Shown one piece after another: positions 1-55,290 of a stretch of DNA of 55,290 nt (position 1 is its first letter; each line of letters opens with the position of its first letter). The DNA is from an uncultured Candidatus Saccharibacteria bacterium (GTDB lineage Bacteria; Patescibacteriota; Dojkabacteria; SC72). The notes under the pieces are model-generated. The model ran no database searches, was not told where the DNA came from, and saw only the letters and a program-made list of their open reading frames with translations. The stretch lies in contig CAZCMQ010000001.1 in NCBI GenBank assembly GCA_964500025.1, positions 1 to 55,290 on the forward strand, given 5' to 3'. The translations under genes and the position numbers were made by a program.

Positions 1-55
1 CCACCGTCTTGAACAGTAACTGTTCCATCAACAGTTAAAGATCCTCCATTATCTG
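1..55. repeat. Terminal overlap copy 1 (identical to 55236-55290); contig closes into a circle or is circularly permuted
   Basis: Read directly: bases 1-55 (ccaccgtcttgaacag...ccattatctg) recur exactly at 55236-55290; unique length 55235 nt. Confidence 0.95.
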
Positions 56-8569: not shown

Positions 8570-8590
8570 GTTATTCTCCTAATGTGTTAC

Positions 8591-8619
8591 ATTATAACAC
8601 AACTGTATCTTTTTGTCAA
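8591..8619 (-). promoter_or_regulatory. Consensus sigma70-type promoter for the leftward arm (TTGACA-17 nt-TATAAT)
   Basis: Minus-strand reading: TTGACAaaaagatacagttgtgtTATAAT, with TGTGTTATAATGT shared with the promoter at 23619. An inverted repeat GTGTTA..TAACAC (8584-8600) overlaps the -10. A palindrome half-site abuts the -35. Confidence 0.65.
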
Positions 8620-8950: not shown

Positions 8951-9090
8951 AGATCGAGGTAGGGTTTTCCTGATTCTTTTTTTTCGGCACAGCACTTGTT
9001 TTCGTGCTACTCTATAGATCCGTAGTGATTTTTTGGAGTAAATGAGAATGATTCGCAAATTGGTAGGTCTGGTCGGCGGGAGGGGTTGAC

Positions 9091-9300
9091 ATGGCGATGA
9101 CCCGCGCAGAACTCATGGAGTTCGCCGAACTCTCGGCGGCGCTCGCCAAGGACAACGGCTGGAACTACGCCGACCCCGTGGCCACGCACCAAGAAAATCT
9201 CATGGACACCATGGCCGAGCACGGGATCAGGAACCCCGATTACAGTGATGCGCTTGATCTCTACGCGCGGCTTGTCCGCCAATTCGGATTGAGGGGTTGA
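9091..9300 (+). CDS. GC-rich island ORF, 69 aa, unknown function
   Basis: GGGAGGGG Shine-Dalgarno 5 nt before the ATG; GC-rich third codon positions. Confidence 0.6.
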   Translation: MAMTRAELMEFAELSAALAKDNGWNYADPVATHQENLMDTMAEHGIRNPDYSDALDLYARLVRQFGLRG

Positions 9301-9434
9301 CATGCGGACACCGATCTTCGCACGGGCGAGGTGATGAGCATGTGGCCGGCCGATGCGGCGTATGCGGCCCGAGTGCTCGGGTGGCCCCTAGTGGATCAGA
9401 GGGGCTATTGGGCGGATTCTAACTGGAGCTGACC

Positions 9435-9614
9435 ATGAAACTGATCAAAAACTTTCCCGACAACCGGACTAAGGTTTACCAGCAAGATGGCGAGTATATC
9501 GTCCGATTCTTTGACGCCGATGGACGGCATCTGCCCGATGCTGATTATTTTACCGACGACAAAACCGACGCCTTGGCGACTGCCTCGGTGCGATGGATGA
9601 ATCTGGGAGACTGA
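9435..9614 (+). CDS. GC-rich island ORF, 59 aa, unknown function
   Basis: Not in the track (below 60 aa). GGAG 6 nt before the ATG. Sequence: MKLIKNFPDNRTKVYQQDGEYIVRFFDADGRHLPDADYFTDDKTDALATASVRWMNLGD. Confidence 0.55.
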   Translation: MKLIKNFPDNRTKVYQQDGEYIVRFFDADGRHLPDADYFTDDKTDALATASVRWMNLGD

Positions 9615-9685
9615 CATCTAGGCCGAAACCTAGCCCCTCCGGGGGCGATGGTCTGCCGGTATGTGCCGGTACTGACGAGGCTATC

Positions 9686-9892
9686 ATGACACTTCAAGGA
9701 AAAACGGACATGAACCCGCCATTTACGGTCCACCTCACGCGCACCGACTATTCCGCTATCCGCACGGCGCTCTTACTGTATCTGTGGAAGGTACAGGATC
9801 GCATCAAGGGTGGACAGGCAAATCCGTGGGATGCCGGCACCCTGATGAAAATTCAACGCGCATTAAATGCCATCGAGAATCAGTGCAAATAA
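9686..9892 (+). CDS. GC-rich island ORF, 68 aa, unknown function (shorter start within track ORF 9593..9892)
   Basis: GAGG 5 nt before the ATG at 9686; followed by the hairpin terminator at 9907. Confidence 0.55.
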   Translation: MTLQGKTDMNPPFTVHLTRTDYSAIRTALLLYLWKVQDRIKGGQANPWDAGTLMKIQRALNAIENQCK

Positions 9893-9906
9893 TTGACAGG
9901 AATCAC

Positions 9907-9928
9907 AGCCGGCCTAGCGCCGGCTTTT
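9907..9928 (+). terminator. Intrinsic terminator-like hairpin AGCCGGC-ctagc-GCCGGCT + TTT
   Basis: 7-bp GC stem, 5-nt loop, short T run, 15 nt after a stop codon. Confidence 0.6.
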
Positions 9929-9942
9929 AACATGTATGTTAA
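9927..9942. repeat. Palindrome copy TTAACAT-GT-ATGTTAA
   Basis: 7+2+7 inverted repeat; exact reverse complement of the copy at 11818-11833. Confidence 0.85.
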
Positions 9943-9945
9943 GTT

Positions 9946-9959
9946 AGTGAGTACTCACT
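9946..9959. repeat. Second perfect palindrome AGTGAGTACTCACT
   Basis: 14-bp perfect palindrome 3 nt after the previous palindrome. Confidence 0.8.
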
Positions 9960-10063
9960 TCGGAAAAAAGCATGCCAGCCTGGGTTAGGGTTTTCCCTAA
10001 TGTAAGTTTGTATGGGTCGCGGGCGACTAATATACAGACAAGTGTCAGACACTGCGGTTAAAC

Positions 10064-10079
10064 TGGCATGGGTTTTGCT
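10064..10079 (+). promoter_or_regulatory. Sigma54-like -24/-12 element (TGGCAT-N5-TTGCT)
   Basis: ctGGcatgggttttGCtt with GG-N10-GC spacing, about 195 nt upstream of ORF 10274; single occurrence. Confidence 0.3.
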
Positions 10080-10183
10080 TGCAAAATAGTTCTTGTGCCC
10101 GACGTCGGAATACGCTACAATGGGAGTATGGGTCTATGGATTGACTATTGATTCTGGTGTACCGATAGAAAAAATTCATTGGC

Positions 10184-10197
10184 TAACATGCATGTTA
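10184..10197. repeat. Palindrome copy TAACATGCATGTTA
   Basis: Perfect 14-bp palindrome 77 nt upstream of ORF 10274. Confidence 0.85.
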
Positions 10198-10273
10198 CGC
10201 GTGACAGGCCGCCCCGAATCATGAGACTATATGTGTACGGTCACTGTTGACCGCACCTACAGGAGATTGAAAA

Positions 10274-11140
10274 ATGGAAAATGCTACTGCTGTCGTCGCT
10301 GACGGACATTTAGAGCCGATCGGTAAATCGGATGCGCTGGTGCCCCAAGCGATCACTGGTCAGGGTATCGCAAACCTGCTGGCGGAAATCTCGGACGTGT
10401 CCCGCGCTGCGGGACTGGCCGCCACGAAAGCCAAGTTTGAAACGCTGCTGGCCGGAATTTTCGCGCTTGGTCAGGATGCCTTCAAAACCGTCAAAAAAGA
10501 CTTCCGCGATGCGAGGAAAGCGCAGGGATACGAGGATTCCTCGCAGCGGGCGACTGATCTGCACGCAATTTGGGGGGCGAATCAGTGGATCAAACTCCCT
10601 GTGCTGGACGAGAATGGTCAGCCGCTGTATGACACTGTGGTACAGATCGGGGCGGACGGCAAGCCCGTCATGAATCCTAATGATGCGCAGGCGACCGTCG
10701 AAATTCCTCGTATGGCGAATTGGATGCCGCAGGAATCGGAGTATGCATGGAATTCCTGCACCAATGCTGCGCGCGCTGCGCTGAAACTGGCCGGAATCAC
10801 TCCGACCGGCGGAAAGATTTTGACCGACGAGCAAAAAGAGGCGAACAAGGAAAAACGCCTCACGTCGAAAGCCGTGGAAGAGGCGAAGGTTGATCCGATG
10901 ACGCTGTTGTCTATGGCGCCTGAGGAACGGGTCAAGGTGTTGCAGGATCTGGACACGGCGATCCAGAAAAAGCGCGAAGAATTGGAGTACAATGCGCTCG
11001 AAAAATCGGCTGCCCGGATCGGCAAGCGGCTGCTGGAAGATTATTCCGGGCAGGATCTGCTGGATATGCTGACGCTGATCTGCCGGGAAGCCGGATATAA
11101 CTGCCATCTGGAAAAGAGAATCGCCGAAGCCGCCGAGTAA
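10274..11140 (+). CDS. GC-rich island ORF, 288 aa, unknown function
   Basis: AGGAG 7 nt before the ATG and a hairpin terminator 7 nt after the stop; the shadow ORFs on both strands are typical of GC-rich DNA. Confidence 0.7.
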   Translation: MENATAVVADGHLEPIGKSDALVPQAITGQGIANLLAEISDVSRAAGLAATKAKFETLLAGIFALGQDAFKTVKKDFRDARKAQGYEDSSQRATDLHAIWGANQWIKLPVLDENGQPLYDTVVQIGADGKPVMNPNDAQATVEIPRMANWMPQESEYAWNSCTNAARAALKLAGITPTGGKILTDEQKEANKEKRLTSKAVEEAKVDPMTLLSMAPEERVKVLQDLDTAIQKKREELEYNALEKSAARIGKRLLEDYSGQDLLDMLTLICREAGYNCHLEKRIAEAAE

Positions 11141-11146
11141 TCAACT

Positions 11147-11167
11147 AGCCCCCTAATGGGGGCTTTC
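11147..11167 (+). terminator. Hairpin AGCCCCC-taat-GGGGGCT + TTC
   Basis: 7-bp GC stem immediately after the stop of 10274..11140; weak T run. Confidence 0.5.
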
Positions 11168-11183
11168 TCATTAGGAATGAAAC

Positions 11184-11399
11184 ATGGCTTATCAAGTTTG
11201 CTTTTGGGCAAAAGACGGACCGAATGGTGAATCCCATCTTCGCACGGTCCGTCTTACTCGGGTGGCACAGGCCGAATCAATAGCACGGCATCGGATCTTA
11301 GGATGTGTCAGGGTGACCCTTGAACGCACCGACGGTCCGCCGGAAAAGCGGATTCTACGGAATCTGTTTATCAAGCCCGGATACAAAGATCCGTTCTAA
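11184..11399 (+). CDS. GC-rich island ORF, 71 aa, unknown function
   Basis: AGGAA-type SD upstream of the ATG; the stop codon TAA is the first arm of the palindrome at 11397. Confidence 0.6.
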   Translation: MAYQVCFWAKDGPNGESHLRTVRLTRVAQAESIARHRILGCVRVTLERTDGPPEKRILRNLFIKPGYKDPF

Positions 11400-11410
11400 C
11401 ATGCATGTTA
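11397..11410. repeat. Palindrome copy TAACATGCATGTTA
   Basis: Perfect 14-bp palindrome overlapping a stop codon and directly preceding a terminator hairpin. Confidence 0.85.
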
Positions 11411-11431
11411 AAGCCCCTAACGGGGCTTTTT
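11411..11431 (+). terminator. Intrinsic terminator AAGCCCC-taac-GGGGCTT + TTT
   Basis: 7-bp stem, tetraloop, T run. Confidence 0.7.
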
Positions 11432-22832: not shown

Positions 22833-23038
22833 TCGTTGGTGAAAATGTCAGGAATATGGGTCGATGGAAGATCCGAAAATACGGGAAGAAGGGGAATCAA
22901 ACTACAGGAAGAGCCAAGGGAATTAAACTAAGTCCCCTTGAAAAGTACATGTGTAGATCTAATCGTAGCTGGAAACATCCTCTCTATGGAGAGATTATGG
23001 CTAAGCTTGGAATGAAGAGAGGCAAAGAGAAGCGCTAG
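22829..23038 (+). CDS. Small basic protein
   Basis: ATGA overlap with the previous stop; K/R-rich. Confidence 0.45.
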   Translation: MIVGENVRNMGRWKIRKYGKKGNQTTGRAKGIKLSPLEKYMCRSNRSWKHPLYGEIMAKLGMKRGKEKR

Positions 23039-23116
23039 GAAGCTCTACAATCGATTTTAATGTGTACAAGCTGGGGTAGTACCAACCATGCAAAATAATT
23101 GACTGTAGGAGGTTCT

Positions 23117-23341
23117 ATGTGGTCCTATGACCCCATTATTCCCAAGGAAAGGCTCGTTGCCGGAAAATATTACCTTGGAAGGTGTAGAAATGCTAAAGTA
23201 GCTAGATGGGATGGAAAAGAATTCTGGTATTGGAGAACCAAGTTTGGTTACACTTTCTTGGAAAACATCAAATGTCCAGAAGATGACAATACCTTCGATG
23301 TGTTCATTGCTGAAGAAATGATCAAGGATATTCCTCTATGA
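23117..23341 (+). CDS. Hypothetical protein (ATG 23117 after GGAGG)
   Basis: In frame with track ORF 23099..23341. Confidence 0.6.
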   Translation: MWSYDPIIPKERLVAGKYYLGRCRNAKVARWDGKEFWYWRTKFGYTFLENIKCPEDDNTFDVFIAEEMIKDIPL

Positions 23342-23535
23342 ATGATTTTATATGGGAATCCATCGAACCTGTTTTACTACCTGCAGATAAGAGCGGCGAT
23401 CTATATCGACACAATCAACAAGTAAAATGTGTTTGTGGAAACACTAAATTTCAGTTGTTTTCTTCAGATGGTTGGTATCAACTCACAGGACGATGCACAA
23501 AATGCAAAAACACAACTACAGTGTATTCGGGCTGA
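23338..23535 (+). CDS. Zinc-ribbon small protein
   Basis: CVCGN...CTKCKN; ATGA overlap. Confidence 0.6.
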   Translation: MNDFIWESIEPVLLPADKSGDLYRHNQQVKCVCGNTKFQLFSSDGWYQLTGRCTKCKNTTTVYSG

Positions 23536-23618
23536 AGTCATCTGACATATTTTGACCATAAAACAGAGGAAATCGAGACTAAAAACAGAATTTATAAGAG
23601 AATAACCTACAATTAGTA

Positions 23619-23648
23619 TTGACAAATCTGTTAAAAATGTGTTATAAT
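23619..23648 (+). promoter_or_regulatory. Near-consensus sigma70 promoter with extended -10 (TTGACA-18 nt-TGtTATAAT)
   Basis: attTTGACAaatctgttaaaaatgTGtTATAATgt. It shares TTGACAAATCT with 28916 and TGTGTTATAATGT with the leftward promoter. Confidence 0.7.
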
Positions 23649-23654
23649 GTTGGA

Positions 23655-23999
23655 AAAATGATAAATTCATTCCTGGACGGTGAAAACTGCAACGGTGGCG
23701 GGAATGTCTTAAATGTCTCTACCACGGTAACCAAAAGAGACAGCCGGGGGAACTCGGGGAGCTAATAAGTTGTATGAGGGCGGCGATGTGCGTGCACTAG
23801 CCAATAGGCTGACTTATTATGTCTCCCTGCATCTGGAGCCGGTGGTAAGCGAAGTAGCATTCGAAAGTCCAGATTACCACGCCTTTGCTACATAAGGTAT
23901 TAAGTGGTGCCGACTACGGAAACCTCAATAAAGTCCGCGGCTGGTTTTGTTTCCTTTACTCACTTTTTAGTGGGTAAGGGGGAACTTTGCCAGCCGTTT
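23655..23999 (+). ncRNA. Candidate structured RNA or long structured leader (about 345 nt), class unknown
   Basis: No ORF of 60 aa or more on the plus strand and visibly higher G+C than the flanks. Hand-found helices: 23668-73/23701-06; 23715-20/23736-41; 23757-61+23763-70/23812-19+23823-27; 23842-48/23874-80 (alternative 23904-08/23876-80). Terminal long hairpin 23938-23996. Confidence 0.5.
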
Positions 24000-24146
24000 C
24001 CTAATAAAGTATAGTAGAGTGAAGAAAGTAAAGTTTACGCTAACTATAGCTGTTAGAAACGATATAACTGTTAATACCATTCGCCGCACCTTGGAAAATC
24101 TTCTAAAATATCTTCCTTGGTGCGTTTTTATTTCTGAGGTATCCAA

Positions 24147-24320
24147 ATGAGATTGTGGCCTTTTTCTAAAGAAGTTAAAGTACAAACCGACAAGAGAATA
24201 ACTATTCCCATTAAAGTACTTGCAGAAAGTCTATTTGAGGAGTATAATCCTAACAAATATTATTATTTTGCCCGTGTTTCTCATAATGATGACATTATAA
24301 TCGCCCAATATCAGAAATGA
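24147..24320 (+). CDS. AbrB/SpoVT (swapped-hairpin) family DNA-binding protein, 57 aa; antitoxin-like
   Basis: Not in the track. GAGG 6 nt upstream. KVQTDKRITIPIKVLAESL...DDIIIAQYQK parallels AbrB (VDELGRVVIPIELRRTL...DDEKIILKKYK). The stop overlaps the next ATG (ATGA). Confidence 0.65.
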   Translation: MRLWPFSKEVKVQTDKRITIPIKVLAESLFEEYNPNKYYYFARVSHNDDIIIAQYQK

Positions 24321-24640
24321 AAGTAAATAATACCTCTAGTAATTCTATAGTACTCTCCATTCCAGAGGGATCGGCCCAATTAACTGAATTCCCGGGGAAT
24401 GAATGTCAGATAGGAATTTTTCATAATGTTTATATTAAAAGGGAACATAGAGGAAAGGGAATTGGATCTAAATTTCATAAACATAGACTAGAAGCTGCCA
24501 AAAGATATGGATATTCTACTGTAATCTGTACGGTTAATGTTGATAACGTGGTTGAACTTCGCATATTAGAAAAGAACAATTGGATCAATATGGGAAAGCT
24601 CACAGATACTTCTTATCTTTTTAAGAAAGATTTGACATGA
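24317..24640 (+). CDS. Minimal GNAT-family N-acetyltransferase, 107 aa
   Basis: Acetyl-CoA motif A: VYIKREHRGKGIGSKFHKHRLEAAKRYGY...VNVDNVVELRILEKNNWINMG. Confidence 0.8.
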   Translation: MKVNNTSSNSIVLSIPEGSAQLTEFPGNECQIGIFHNVYIKREHRGKGIGSKFHKHRLEAAKRYGYSTVICTVNVDNVVELRILEKNNWINMGKLTDTSYLFKKDLT

Positions 24641-24783
24641 AGCATAAATACTATGATGTAATTATCGCTTGGGCTAACGGAAAAGATATTGAATGCCGTA
24701 CTTCATATACATATGAATGGCAGCCTTGTATGACAGACGAAGAATGGATTGATGAACTCTTAGAGGGAGTTTTAGGTGGATAA
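24637..24783 (+). CDS. Small ORF, 48 aa, paralogue-family member
   Basis: Not in the track. ATGA overlap. MKHKYYDVIIAWANGKDIECR..EW resembles 12760 and 13562. Confidence 0.5.
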   Translation: MKHKYYDVIIAWANGKDIECRTSYTYEWQPCMTDEEWIDELLEGVLGG

Positions 24784-24955
24784 GCATGTTTTGGTTGTCG
24801 CTTACAAAACCCATTATATACACAATGGAGAAAGAATAGATTATTGGGCAATCAGACAGTGGACTTTTAATACAAAAGAAAGCGCGGAAGAGTTTTTCAC
24901 ACAGCTTGAAAAACTTGAATTCAAATTAGTGGCTATATGGAAAATACCATGCTAA
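24776..24955 (+). CDS. Possible small ORF (GTG start), 59 aa
   Basis: GGAG upstream of GTG 24776; weak. Confidence 0.3.
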   Translation: MDKHVLVVAYKTHYIHNGERIDYWAIRQWTFNTKESAEEFFTQLEKLEFKLVAIWKIPC

Positions 24956-25161
24956 TATATCTTTCTATTTGTACTTTTTTTGCTCTCTTTACACTATTAT
25001 ATTCTTATTTTGTAGAAAGTGAGATTTATATAGCCTCCGTCATTATTAGTATATTGCTTTATGTACCGTTCTTGAATATAGTTTTATTGTCAATGTTTAT
25101 CGTTGCTGTGTATGACGACAATAGAGCTTTTTTTGATAAATCATTACTCAAAAGAAAATGA
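24937..25161 (+). CDS. Small membrane protein
   Basis: Two hydrophobic stretches (LIYLSICTFFALFTLLY; VIISILLYVPFLNIVLLSMFIVAV). Confidence 0.5.
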   Translation: MENTMLIYLSICTFFALFTLLYSYFVESEIYIASVIISILLYVPFLNIVLLSMFIVAVYDDNRAFFDKSLLKRK

Positions 25162-25261
25162 TTAGCTTATCTTTGCTTGCATTATATATTAACTTGTTTA
25201 CTCTTATATTTTCTCTTATTTGTATTATACTTTTACCATTTGCTATTTATTTTGTGCTAAA

Positions 25262-25471
25262 ATGAATTGTTCTGAATGCATGTTTTCAGTTAATGATGGA
25301 TATGAATTGTCTTGTCGTAGATATCCACCAACTGTTATTACTCACACATCATCTAGGTTTCCGGTCGTGTATCAAGGGTGGTGGTGTGGGGAATTTAAAC
25401 AAAGATTTGATTCAATCACTATGTTAAAATTAGTGCCAAGGGAGAATGAATCCAGAAGTCTTAGTAATTAA
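25262..25471 (+). CDS. Cys-rich small protein (ATG 25262)
   Basis: In frame with the track ORF; MNCSECMF... Confidence 0.5.
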   Translation: MNCSECMFSVNDGYELSCRRYPPTVITHTSSRFPVVYQGWWCGEFKQRFDSITMLKLVPRENESRSLSN

Positions 25472-54524: not shown

Positions 54525-55290
54525 TATGTGTATCCCAGATTAACCGTTACCTCGCTGGCAGCAACGCCAGTTGTGTTATTGTCTGCAATTCCCGTTGTGA
54601 TCCGAAGAGCAATTCCAGTAGAGAAGTTTAATCCATTAGGGAAATTTAGAGTTCGACCAGCGCCTGCGGTGTTTCCTGGGATAATATATCGTTGAACAGG
54701 AGTATCAGAACTGGATGGATTTGTGGCCATATTGTATAGTTTCAGAACACAATAAGCCGCATTAATATTACCCACATCCACATTGTACAGAACTCCTGCA
54801 GATGCTTTCACGACAGCCTGATCTTGACTAGTTCCAACGGAGATTTTACTATAGGCCGTTGAGGCTGGGATAATAGTAGAATCATCTGTTGCAATTGTTA
54901 CTCGCTGAACACCATTGCCATTTGCTCCAGAACCAGTAGCAATTGTGTTGCCGTTGATCTGGGTGTTGTTGACAGATTGGTTAGCAGTCAGAGCACCAAT
55001 AGTATTGGAGCCTGTCTGTAGAGTAGCCTGGACCGCGAAGGTACCAGCATTGGTAACTTGATGTGAAGGAACTGAAGCCAGAGATACTGGTAGTGTGGTG
55101 ATAGCAGAAGTGCCATCTGAAAGCCGCACAAATACTGGGGTACCAACAGGGGCGTCGACAGTAAGAGAACCGCTATTATCCGTTACTGCTACCGTACCAG
55201 ATACTCCAACAGTGCCATCAACGGTAATAGAACCACCACCGTCTTGAACAGTAACTGTTCCATCAACAGTTAAAGATCCTCCATTATCTG
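54524..55290 (-). CDS. C-terminal part of the junction-spanning repeat/fibre-like protein
   Basis: The frame is open to the right window edge; the GTG 'start' at 55129 in the ORF track is internal (..SLTVDAPVGTPVFVRLSDGTS..). Confidence 0.8.
   Translation of the reverse strand, partial: DNGGSLTVDGTVTVQDGGGSITVDGTVGVSGTVAVTDNSGSLTVDAPVGTPVFVRLSDGTSAITTLPVSLASVPSHQVTNAGTFAVQATLQTGSNTIGALTANQSVNNTQINGNTIATGSGANGNGVQRVTIATDDSTIIPASTAYSKISVGTSQDQAVVKASAGVLYNVDVGNINAAYCVLKLYNMATNPSSSDTPVQRYIIPGNTAGAGRTLNFPNGLNFSTGIALRITTGIADNNTTGVAASEVTVNLGYT
55236..55290. repeat. Terminal overlap copy 2 (identical to 1-55)
   Basis: Exact 55-nt identity with the window start. Confidence 0.95.

What the first reader, a model, noticed from the sequence alone, without database searches (positions are those of the whole stretch)
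23619..23999. Strong promoter driving an ORF-poor, helix-rich, GC-enriched RNA of about 345 nt and unknown class
A near-consensus promoter with an extended -10 (23619-23648) fires into about 345 nt with no plus-strand ORF of 60 aa or more. This stretch is clearly more G+C-rich than the flanking AT-rich DNA.

By hand I can draw many helices:
- CATTCC/GGAATG (23668-73 / 23701-06)
- GTCTCT/AGAGAC (23715-20 / 23736-41)
- a composite stem, GGGAG+TAATAAGT pairing with ACTTATTA+CTCCC (23757-70 / 23812-27), enclosing a TAGCC-aata-GGCTG hairpin
- GTGGTAA/TTACCAC (23842-48 / 23874-80), where the 3' strand can alternatively pair with GTGGT at 23904-08
- a long imperfect terminal hairpin (23938-23996), whose 5' strand CGGCTG is also complementary to CAGCCG at 23741-46

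Mutually exclusive pairings of this kind are typical of riboswitch or attenuator leaders. The element sits about 150 nt upstream of the AbrB-like/GNAT pair. It could therefore be a stand-alone phage ncRNA (decoy, antitoxin-type or anti-defence RNA) or a ligand- or tRNA-sensing leader for that operon. I cannot assign it to any RNA family from memory.
Basis: seen in the sequence. Interest (0 to 1): 0.8.

Follow-up and report, generated by a model that had tools for sequence, protein, structure and literature searches.

The report
Uncatalogued structured phage leader RNA
One of this phage's two perfect host-type promoters transcribes a roughly 350-base folded, non-coding RNA at the head of its DNA-replication genes; related RNAs occupy the same slot in a few distant uncultured phages and match no catalogued RNA family, so it is a real new phage RNA whose function is still inferred.

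Summary
Window 23619-23648 is a 12/12 sigma-70 promoter with an extended -10, one of only two in this complete 55-kb circular phage genome. It fires into about 345 nt with no credible ORF and raised G+C. The plus strand folds far better than the minus strand (-117.6 against -91.9 kcal/mol).

Rfam 15 and ARAGORN find nothing. I found divergent counterparts in the same slot in other uncultured phages:
- after the primase and before the helicase in L049 and L053;
- between cro-like genes and a helicase-primase pair in L132, L149 and L150.

They share an ordered architecture. It runs: hairpin E, a single-stranded 'AACCGKGGG', a variable hairpin, a 6-bp helix A enclosing 'AGCSGG...AAGU', two hairpins, and a long terminal hairpin carrying 'UGGGUARGGGGG'. 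The helices covary: 14 of 17 pairs show compensatory changes and 0 of 500 shuffles reach this.

The window's own membership rests on synteny, a descriptor match and tail similarity, not on covariance-model or HMM scores. The downstream gene cassette is swapped in near-identical relatives, so this is not a riboswitch for the GNAT pair.

Best guess (about 0.35): a cis-acting elongation-control (antitermination or attenuation) leader for the replication operon. Rivals are a stand-alone trans-acting RNA and a primer or origin RNA. The function is untested.

The parts
23619..23648 (+). Sigma-70 promoter: -35 TTGACA (23619-24), 18-nt spacer with TG, -10 TATAAT (23643-48). The start site is inferred at about 23655-57.
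   Evidence: 12/12 with TG, one of two such sites in the genome. Counterparts L049 and L053 also carry TTGACA promoters with TG.
23668..23706 (+). 5' hairpin P1 (CAUUCC/GGAAUG closing stem).
   Evidence: L049 and L053 also begin with a hairpin, but I could not align it, so it is untested by covariation.
23715..23741 (+). Hairpin E: GUCUCU/AGAGAC with a 15-nt loop ending ACCAAA.
   Evidence: Equivalent hairpins with covarying stems and similar loops occur in L049, L053, L132, L140, L149 and L150.
23742..23753 (+). Single-stranded motif M2, AGCCGGGGGAAC. The family consensus is A-R-C-C-G-K-G-G-G.
   Evidence: The L044 SNP G23743A gives AACCGGGGG, closer to the consensus.
23756..23827 (+). Variable long hairpin F, with a nested UAGCC-aaua-GGCUG.
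   Evidence: inverted repeat I2. It is short or absent in L049, L053 and L132, and about 85 nt in L149.
23831..23874 (+). Helix A domain: AUCUGG (23831-36) pairs with CCAGAU (23869-74). It encloses motif M3 AGCCGGUGGUAAG, the small hairpin A' (CGAA/UUCG, 23850-63) and the junction GAAAGU.
   Evidence: A 6-bp helix is kept with compensatory changes in 8 lineages, always flanked by AGC...AGU. The descriptor hits the window only here.
23876..23908 (+). Hairpin B (ACCAC/GUGGU outer stem, GCCUU/AAGGU inner stem).
   Evidence: A hairpin at the same position is seen by eye in L049, L053 and L132 (sequences).
23910..23919 (+). Small hairpin C (CCG-acua-CGG).
   Evidence: Small hairpins at the same position occur in L049, L053 and L132. 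Support is weak.
23938..23996 (+). Terminal hairpin D. The 5' strand is pyrimidine-rich. The G-rich 3' strand carries motif M5, GUGGGUAAGGGGGAAC (23970-85). Several G-U pairs make it strand-specific.
   Evidence: It is the best and only covariance-model hit in L049 at the syntenic place. The tail is significantly similar to L132 (0 of 500 shuffles).
23987..24015 (+). Weaker promoter-like site TTGCCA-17-TATAGT, overlapping the 3' strand of D.
   Evidence: 10/12. It is not seen in L049, L053 or L132, so its status is uncertain.
24086..24135 (+). Terminator-like hairpin (GCACCUUGGAA...UUCCUUGGUGC) followed by GUUUUUAUUUCU. It ends 11 nt before the ATG at 24147 (GAGG at 24136-39).
   Evidence: It is identical in L044-L046, and the sequence similarity ends at the downstream start codon.

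Best explanation
The element is a plus-strand, non-coding, highly structured RNA of about 345 nt to the end of hairpin D, or about 480 nt if it runs to the U-tract at 24135. Host RNA polymerase transcribes it from one of the phage's two consensus promoters. It forms the 5' leader of the replication-gene operon (helicase, split PolA, ThyX, nucleases, RNR).

It belongs to a small, uncatalogued family of phage leader RNAs with the ordered architecture P1 - E - 'AACCGKGGG' - F - helix A('AGCSGG..AAGU') - B - C - D('UGGGUARGGGGG').

Inferred mechanism: the folded nascent RNA acts in cis on the transcribing polymerase, or recruits a factor to it. Transcription started at this promoter can then pass the terminator at 24086-24135 and any Rho-dependent stops, and reach the replication genes. 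This would work like HK022 put or lambda nut leaders without being a member of either family.

Shown: the promoter, non-coding status, strand, conserved structure, conserved genomic slot, and independence from the adjacent gene. Inferred: everything about mechanism.
For: 1. Promoter strength and rarity. No other site of 11/12 or better lies between 23.6 and 28.9 kb, so helicase (25446) and PolA (27050) must be read through this leader or from far upstream.
2. A hairpin plus U-tract sits between the RNA and the first gene. L062 also has a terminator-like hairpin after its RNA, and in L098, L095 and L079 hairpin D itself is followed by U-rich sequence.
3. Conserved slot at the head of early or replication modules. 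The element lies after the primase and before the helicase in L049 and L053. It lies between the P22_Cro/YdaS-like genes and the SF2 helicase plus Toprim primase in L132, L149 and L150, and L151 has a comparable gap with only a degenerate helix A. That is the slot of nutR/tR1 in lambda (background knowledge) and of putR in HK022 (PMC9378689).
4. In L053 and L132 no separate consensus promoter or terminator was seen by eye between the RNA and the next gene, so there the RNA is probably a leader.
5. RNA-level selection: in 6 non-window lineages (7 alignment rows), 97% of cells are paired, 14 of 17 pairs show double changes, 0 of 500 shuffles reach this, and slid controls give 21-42%. G-U pairs and a 26 kcal/mol strand asymmetry agree.
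6. The RNA-plus-terminator module is kept intact while the downstream cassette is exchanged.
Against: - No functional data exist.
- The RNA is 4-5 times larger than put and shares no demonstrated sequence or fold with put, nut or EAR.
- The window has no boxA.
- L049 and L053 have no clear terminator after the RNA.
- Few strong intrinsic terminators are predicted inside the downstream operon.
- The window's family membership is not significant by covariance model or HMM (R2: 7.3 bits, E = 4.4; nhmmer: no hit). It rests on synteny, a descriptor match (1 hit in the window, 0 in 2.5 Mb of background, 1 in 200 shuffles), the hairpin D hit (14 bits, E = 0.12 in 568 kb) and tail similarity to L132.
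- Position at the head of an early operon is also what a stand-alone early RNA or an origin would show.
Confidence: 0.35

Rival explanations
1. A stand-alone, abundant, trans-acting phage ncRNA (decoy, sponge, protein-sequestering or anti-defence RNA) that ends at hairpin D or at the 24135 U-tract. Downstream genes would be expressed only by leak-through or from the weak 23987 promoter.
For: - A consensus promoter with a discrete terminator-like end gives a compact transcription unit.
- The sequence is invariant apart from 1 SNP while the neighbouring genes are swapped.
- Conserved single-stranded G-rich motifs M2, M3 and M5 could be binding sites.
- The size and complexity are typical of RNAs that work as molecules in their own right.
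Against: - In L053 and L132 the RNA runs into the next gene with no terminator or new promoter seen.
- No target complementarity or partner protein was identified.
- No conserved neighbouring protein gene exists.
- The element always keeps the same orientation and position at the head of an operon, which a trans-acting RNA would not need.
Confidence: 0.25
2. A primer or origin RNA. The host-polymerase transcript would form a persistent RNA-DNA hybrid through the G-rich M5 tract, followed by the AT-rich 24000-24090 stretch, and would prime or activate replication. This would resemble ColE1 RNA II, the T7 phi1.1A/B primary origin or mitochondrial CSB II.
For: - The phage has T7-like replication genes (separate primase and DnaB-like helicase, split PolA; related contigs also carry a 5'-3' exonuclease and L053 an endonuclease I), and none of the ten large proteins scanned looked like a phage RNA polymerase.
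- The element sits among replication genes in every well-resolved member.
- Two G-runs on the non-template strand (GGGUAAGGGGG) are followed by 33-34% G+C DNA.
- RNA II is likewise a long, folded transcript from a sigma-70 promoter (background knowledge).
Against: - There are no iterons, and DnaA-box matches are no more frequent than in shuffles.
- GC skew follows transcription only.
- In the folded RNA the G-tract is sequestered in a conserved hairpin.
- The only antisense (RNA I-like) promoter candidate is weak, 9/12 at 23686-23658.
- D-hairpin RNAs in L068 and L093 precede HNH and small-terminase genes rather than replication genes.
Confidence: 0.15
3. An RNase III (or RNase E) processing and stability cassette. 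The long imperfect hairpins F and D would be cut to separate and stabilise upstream and downstream messages, as in the T7 early region.
For: F and D are long imperfect hairpins (D about 25 bp). The phage is T7-like in its replication genes.
Against: This does not explain the conserved single-stranded motifs, helix A, hairpin E or the dedicated consensus promoter. F is absent from several members.
Confidence: 0.08
4. A ligand- or tRNA-sensing riboswitch or attenuator for the adjacent 57-aa/GNAT genes.
For: There is a structured leader with a terminator-like hairpin before the gene. In the window and L132, GGGAAC of M5 could alternatively pair with GUUYCC just downstream (sequence; the pairing is by inspection).
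Against: - The downstream genes are not conserved.
- There is no riboswitch or T-box hit in Rfam.
- The alternative 3' hairpin is absent from L049 (sequence, by inspection).
Confidence: 0.05
5. Small protein-coding gene(s), for example the 35-codon ORF 23658-23765.
For: Short ORFs exist.
Against: - There are no PHROG hits.
- Counterparts share no ORF; only scattered hits of at most 32 aa in mixed frames and strands.
- The conserved features are helices with compensatory changes.
Confidence: 0.02

Closest known systems
HK022 put RNAs (putL, putR)
   Same: Both are nascent structured RNAs encoded just downstream of strong early promoters, ahead of delayed-early and replication genes. putR lies about 270 nt downstream of the PR start site (PMC9378689), the slot the L132, L149 and L150 RNAs occupy. 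Both are followed by terminators.
   Different: put is about 70 nt with two stem-loops and is known only from lambdoid phages. This RNA is about 280-350 nt with at least 7 helices and G-rich motifs. No sequence or fold relationship is shown, and no evidence of RNAP binding exists.
Lambda nutR/tR1 leader (boxA-boxB) and rrn antitermination leaders
   Same: Both hold an equivalent position and are RNA sites acting on elongating polymerase. Several distant D-hairpin RNAs carry CUCUUUAC, resembling the boxA core CUCUUUA.
   Different: The window, L049, L053 and L132 lack a boxA match. No N-like protein was identified. The pyrimidine strand is base-paired, not free.
ColE1 RNA II, T7 primary-origin transcripts and mitochondrial CSB II
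   Same: All combine a strong promoter, a long folded transcript, a G-tract on the non-template strand, and AT-rich DNA next to replication genes.
   Different: No origin features are detectable. The G-tract lies inside a conserved RNA hairpin. There is no RNA I-like antisense unit.
Lambda pR' '6S' leader transcript (pR'-qut-tR')
   Same: Both are short leader transcripts from a strong constitutive promoter, ended by a terminator ahead of a long operon.
   Different: The lambda leader needs the DNA-binding Q protein, and its body is not a conserved structure. Here the RNA body is conserved with covariation, and no Q-like gene was recognised.
Large phage-associated ornate RNAs (GOLLD, ROOL) and other Rfam phage motifs
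   Same: All are large, structured, phage-borne RNAs of unknown function.
   Different: There is no Rfam match for the window or for any counterpart. This RNA is smaller and is fixed at the head of an operon, not next to tRNA clusters.

Membership tests
Any Rfam 15 family (4227 models, including riboswitches, T-box, 6S, RNase P, SRP, tmRNA, group I/II introns, GOLLD, ROOL, HEARO) | Score at or above the family gathering threshold | tested here: not met
   The whole window gives 0 hits. In E-value mode over 23000-24700 the only hit inside the element is Betaproteobacteria-1 (19.1 bits against a gathering score of 49.4). All counterparts are negative at the element.
tmRNA / tRNA-like | tRNA-like domain and tag reading frame detectable by ARAGORN | tested here: not met
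   0 genes in the window.
HK022 put RNA | Location just downstream of an early promoter, upstream of terminators and delayed-early genes | tested here: met
   Feature taken from PMC9378689.
HK022 put RNA | About 70 nt with two stem-loops, and sequence similarity among put elements | tested here: not met
   The RNA is about 345 nt with at least 7 helices. No put model or sequence was on hand for a direct comparison.
HK022 put RNA | Binds the RNAP beta' zinc-binding domain and suppresses termination in cis | not testable with these tools
   This needs transcription assays.
Lambda-type nut site | boxA (CGCUCUUUA-like) followed by a boxB hairpin, with an N-like protein | tested here: not met
   The window has UUUCCUUUAC, base-paired within D. 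CUCUUUAC occurs only in distant D-hairpin loci. No N-like gene was recognised.
Riboswitch / T-box leader | A conserved aptamer upstream of a conserved class of regulated genes, with mutually exclusive terminator and antiterminator | tested here: not met
The downstream genes differ in every lineage. No Rfam hit.
ColE1 RNA II-type primer | Sigma-70 promoter and a long folded transcript with a G-tract | tested here: met
   M5 at 23970-85.
ColE1 RNA II-type primer | Overlapping antisense regulator and a mapped origin or RNase H site downstream | tested here: inconclusive
   Only a 9/12 antisense promoter-like site is present. There are no iterons and DnaA-box matches are no more frequent than in shuffles. 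The origin itself cannot be tested with these tools.
Intrinsic terminator (for hairpin D) | A G+C-rich stem immediately followed by a U-tract | tested here: not met
   In the window D is followed by GUUUCCUAAU. The later hairpin 24086-24123 plus UUUUUAUUUCU does fit.
The E-M2-A-D phage leader RNA family defined here | Hairpin E, then ARCCGKGGG, then within 110 nt a 6-bp helix bracketing AGC...AGU | tested here: met
   One hit in the window at 23742/23831-23874, 0 hits in 2.48 Mb of other loci, and 1 hit in 200 shuffles. The descriptor's tolerances were chosen with knowledge of the window.
The E-M2-A-D phage leader RNA family defined here | A significant covariance-model or HMM score against models built from other members | tested here: not met
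   R2 gives 7.3 bits, E = 4.4. nhmmer gives no hit. The reverse model R3 finds only hairpin D of L049, at 14 bits.

The most novel reading that the evidence does not exclude
This is the founding, window-type member of a new class of large (about 300 nt) phage riboregulators. They would act directly on the host transcription or replication machinery: an RNA-only processive antiterminator far more elaborate than put, or a G-tract primer RNA that lets RNAP-less T7-like phages start replication. The class would be spread from low-GC lytic phages with T7-like replication genes to temperate phages whose helicase relatives are in Burkholderiales genomes, and possibly to integrated elements of cellular genomes (the G1 repeats).
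Probability: 0.3. Interest if true: 0.8.

Novelty: new variant of a known kind. Interest (0 to 1): 0.58.

Why it matters
Only a handful of RNAs are known to reprogram RNA polymerase or to start replication on their own (put, EAR, RNA II). A conserved, promoter-driven, 300-nt structured RNA fixed at the entrance of phage replication operons would add a new, testable example. It would show how phages that lack their own polymerase time their middle genes. It would also supply a new family for Rfam-type annotation of viral dark matter. The element is compact (promoter, RNA, terminator) and could be moved directly into reporter assays.

Tried and rejected
1. Known-family searches were all negative: Rfam at gathering and E-value thresholds on the window and 20 related loci, and ARAGORN.
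2. blastn of the element and of the L132 leader against 50,697 phage records gave no match. Cultured phages share at most 41% (window helicase) and 38% (L132 helicase) identity.
3. nhmmer or blastn of the window RNA against 43 IMG/VR loci carrying 41-64% identical helicases gave nothing. Model R1 found no match in those loci, and R3 found none either.
4. One viral scan was wasted on a mis-specified pattern. The corrected three-motif pattern found only L132 plus a coding false positive.
5. The genome-contig scan gave only chance hits in the cyanobacterial upp gene and in Streptomyces.
6. MAFFT alignments that included the window were structurally wrong, so models were built from single sequences and grown by model-guided alignment.
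7. Ideas considered and dropped:
   - permuted RNase P (motifs GAAAGUCC and GCAAACCG are in the wrong order, no Rfam hit);
   - 16S 3'-end mimic (only 8 nt shared);
   - CRISPR repeat mimic;
   - G-quadruplex scaffold (the G-runs are not all conserved; L150 has C-rich sequence at M3);
   - M5 as a ribosome-binding site for a downstream ORF (no consistent start codon or ORF);
   - hairpin D as a generic terminator (only one copy per genome; no U-tract in the window).
8. A short literature search found no description of such an RNA.

Full report
**1. What is at 23619-23999**

The window is a complete, circularly assembled phage genome; its first ~55 nt recur at its end. It encodes a large terminase, portal, primase, DnaB-like helicase, split PolA, ThyX and RNR. 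None of the ten large proteins scanned against PHROGs looked like a phage RNA polymerase.

At 23619-23648 lies TTGACA-18 nt-TATAAT with a TG extension, a 12/12 match. Only one other such site exists in 55 kb, at 8619(-), heading the packaging and structural genes.

Downstream, to about 24000:
- the plus strand has ORFs of at most 41 aa (apart from a 48-aa ORF that starts inside the promoter);
- none of the ORFs tested here on either strand matches PHROGs;
- G+C rises to 0.50, against 0.33-0.34 in the flanks.

The plus strand folds to -117.6 kcal/mol (z = -2.59). The minus strand reaches only -91.9 kcal/mol (z = -1.05). That fits a plus-strand RNA whose stems contain G-U pairs.

**2. Not a catalogued RNA**

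Rfam 15 gives nothing at gathering thresholds on the whole window. In E-value mode over 23000-24700, the only hit inside the element is Betaproteobacteria-1 at 19 bits, against a gathering score of 49. ARAGORN finds no tRNA or tmRNA. blastn against 50,697 phage records finds nothing.

**3. Relatives**

The helicase has 99-100% identical copies in Logan assemblies (L044-L048), then nothing above 57% identity.
- L044-L046 carry the promoter, the RNA and the following 150 nt with two SNPs downstream of the promoter. The genes that follow are a different cassette, and similarity ends at the first start codon, 24147.
- The two 56-57% helicase relatives, L049 and L053, have in the same place (after the primase, before the helicase) a TTGACA/TG promoter followed by about 280 nt without genes.
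- A pattern taken from L049 and L053 found L132 in IMG/VR and L140 in a groundwater metagenome.
- L132, L149 and L150 (with L151, whose core is degenerate) are temperate-type contigs whose helicase relatives include proteins from Paraburkholderia, Burkholderia and Massilia genomes. There the element lies in a 460-930-nt gap between P22_Cro/YdaS-like genes and an SF2 helicase plus Toprim primase.

**4. Shared architecture**

Read 5' to 3':
- a first hairpin (P1);
- hairpin E (4-6 bp stem, 12-15-nt loop);
- single-stranded M2, 'ARCCGKGGG';
- a variable hairpin F (absent up to about 85 nt);
- a 6-bp helix A, whose 5' strand is followed by 'AGCSGG...' (M3) and whose 3' strand is preceded by '..AAGU', enclosing a small hairpin;
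- hairpin B;
- small hairpin C;
- a long terminal hairpin D, whose G-rich 3' strand carries M5, 'UGGGUARGGGGG'.

In the window these are E 23715-41, M2 23742-53, F 23756-23827, A 23831-36/23869-74, B 23876-23908, C 23910-19 and D 23938-96.

A single-sequence covariance model of the L049 core finds L132 (E = 1.8e-5) and L053 (E = 3.4e-5) among 594 kb. L140 scores E = 0.12. A second model adds L149 and L150.

On that model-fitted alignment, 97% of cells pair and 14 of 17 pairs carry compensatory changes. No shuffle of 500 reaches any measure, and slid registers give 21-42% pairing. The caveats are that the alignment is fitted to the model and that one L149 row is mis-assigned in hairpin E.

Helix A reads AUCUGG/CCAGAU (window), GUCUAG/CUGGAC, GGCUAG/CUGGCC, UGCUAG/CUGGCA, CGUCAG/CUGACG and GGUUAG/CUGACU. 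All are fully paired.

**5. How firmly the window belongs**

Models built from the other members do not score the window significantly:
- R2 gives 7.3 bits, E = 4.4;
- a profile HMM gives no hit.

The 75-nt hairpin F insertion and divergent loops are probably responsible. Membership rests on five other points.
- Synteny, and a promoter of the same type.
- A structural descriptor (E + M2 with at most 1 mismatch + helix A bracketed by AGC/AGU) hits the window exactly once, at the expected place. It hits 0 times in 2.48 Mb of unrelated loci and once in 200 shuffles. Its tolerances were set with knowledge of the window.
- The window-tail model's only hit in 568 kb is hairpin D of L049, at the syntenic site (14 bits, E = 0.12; E = 0.012 in 55 kb).
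- The window 3' end GUGGGUAAGGGGGAACUUUGCCAGCCGUUUCCUAA aligns with L132's GUGGGU-AGGGGGAACUCUGCC--CGGUUCCCUAA. The score is 37 against a null of 18.2 +/- 2.2, and 0 of 500 shuffles reach it.
- The one SNP inside the RNA in L044 changes M2 to AACCGGGGG, closer to the consensus.

I regard homology as likely, about 0.8, but not proven.

**6. A wider set sharing hairpin D**

Scanning IMG/VR with CTTTAC..GGGTARGGGGG returned 77 loci, most of them chance. About a dozen distinct ones have long pyrimidine/G-rich hairpins preceded by ORF-poor structured DNA.
- L062 and L095 have promoters scoring 12-13 out of 13. Counting the window, L049 and L053, five such RNAs have near-consensus promoters; the background P(score of 11 or more) is about 0.03.
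- Most sit at the start of early, replication or recombination modules: L125 after a cI-like gene, L062 before a primase-helicase, L079 before an exonuclease and a DnaB-like gene, L098 before RecT.
- L068 and L093 instead precede HNH and small-terminase genes.
- The core model R1 does not detect them, so they may share only the 3' module.

**7. What it does**

*Shown:* the strand, the non-coding status, selection on RNA structure, a fixed position and orientation at the head of replication operons, and independence from the adjacent gene.

This rules out a riboswitch for the 57-aa/GNAT pair. The 57-aa protein also has no AbrB hit.

Between D and the next gene the window has another hairpin and then GCACCUUGGAA...UUCCUUGGUGC followed by GUUUUUAUUUCU (24086-24135). 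This ends 11 nt before the ATG. No other strong promoter lies before the helicase and PolA genes.

*Inferred:* in the temperate members the slot is that of lambda nutR/tR1 (background knowledge) and HK022 putR (PMC9378689). I therefore favour a cis-acting elongation-control leader (antitermination or attenuation platform), at confidence 0.35.

The rivals are:
- a stand-alone trans-acting RNA (0.25);
- a primer or origin RNA of the RNA II, T7-origin or CSB II kind (0.15). In its favour are the G-tract, the AT-rich DNA downstream and the T7-like replication genes without a recognised phage RNAP. Against it are the absence of iterons, DnaA-box matches at chance level and a G-tract sequestered in a hairpin;
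- an RNase III processing cassette (0.08);
- a riboswitch (0.05);
- a coding gene (0.02).

**8. Comparison and novelty**

The element works most like put or nut leaders by position, but it fails their defining size, architecture and boxA features. It matches no Rfam family. I classify it as a new variant of a known kind: a new family of phage leader or non-coding RNAs. There is roughly a 0.3 chance that it is a genuinely new class of riboregulator acting on the transcription or replication machinery.

Noticed in passing
window 1-55 and 55236-55290: The first ~55 nt (CCACCGTCTTGAACAG...) are repeated at the end of the window. The window is therefore a complete, circularly assembled or terminally redundant phage genome.
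   Followed up: partly
window 9001-11430: A G+C-rich island (0.54 against about 0.40) holds a 288-aa ORF (10274-11140, +) fully overlapped by a 265-aa ORF on the minus strand. Neither has a Pfam hit. Two strong intrinsic terminators follow on the plus strand, at 11147-11164 and 11410-11429, so the early region seems to be terminator-gated.
   Followed up: partly
window 8590-8619 (-): This is the only other 12/12+TG sigma-70 promoter. It heads the packaging and structural operon, with a short leader and no structured RNA.
   Followed up: partly
window 24147-25445 versus L044 3474-4026: In relatives with 99% identical helicase and a near-identical RNA, the 57-aa + GNAT + small-ORF cassette is replaced by three other small genes (58, 57 and 69 aa). 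The breakpoint is exactly at the first start codon after the terminator-like hairpin.
   Followed up: partly
L049 11640-11877: A group I intron (Rfam RF00028, 105 bits) interrupts the thyX gene of the 56%-helicase relative. The thyX gene of the window-type relative L044 is called as one uninterrupted 238-aa gene.
   Followed up: no
L134 5291-5720, 9352-9473 and at least 5 shorter fragments (also L133, L135, L136, L139, L141): A repetitive element in peat-metagenome contigs, one of them 198 kb and chromosome-like. It carries a 9-bp hairpin, then AACCGUGGGG, then a 6-bp helix bracketing AGCGGGG...AAAGU, like the phage RNA core. It is preceded by a TTATATAA box, and one fragment abuts a tRNA gene. 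It may be a cellular or integrated-element relative of the family, or a coincidence (R1 E = 0.13-0.28).
   Followed up: partly
The following 107-aa protein is a GNAT acetyltransferase (PF00583, E = 5.8e-7).
   Followed up: yes
L132 about 13075-12960 (-), L149 1600-1680, L150 1940-2010: The temperate-phage leaders share an extra, well-conserved 5' module (..AAUAGUAGUACUUACCGCGCYGAAGUCAGAGAGGCGUAACCGGGUUCUCCGAACACCCGGGCGGU..). It lies upstream of the E-M2-A core and is absent from the window, L049 and L053.
   Followed up: no
L053 1475-1494: The loop of hairpin B contains GUUUUUGAAUGGACCAUUAG, which resembles part of the S. pyogenes type II-A CRISPR repeat (recalled from memory: GUUUUGAAUGGUCCCAAAAC). 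This is probably a coincidence.
   Followed up: no
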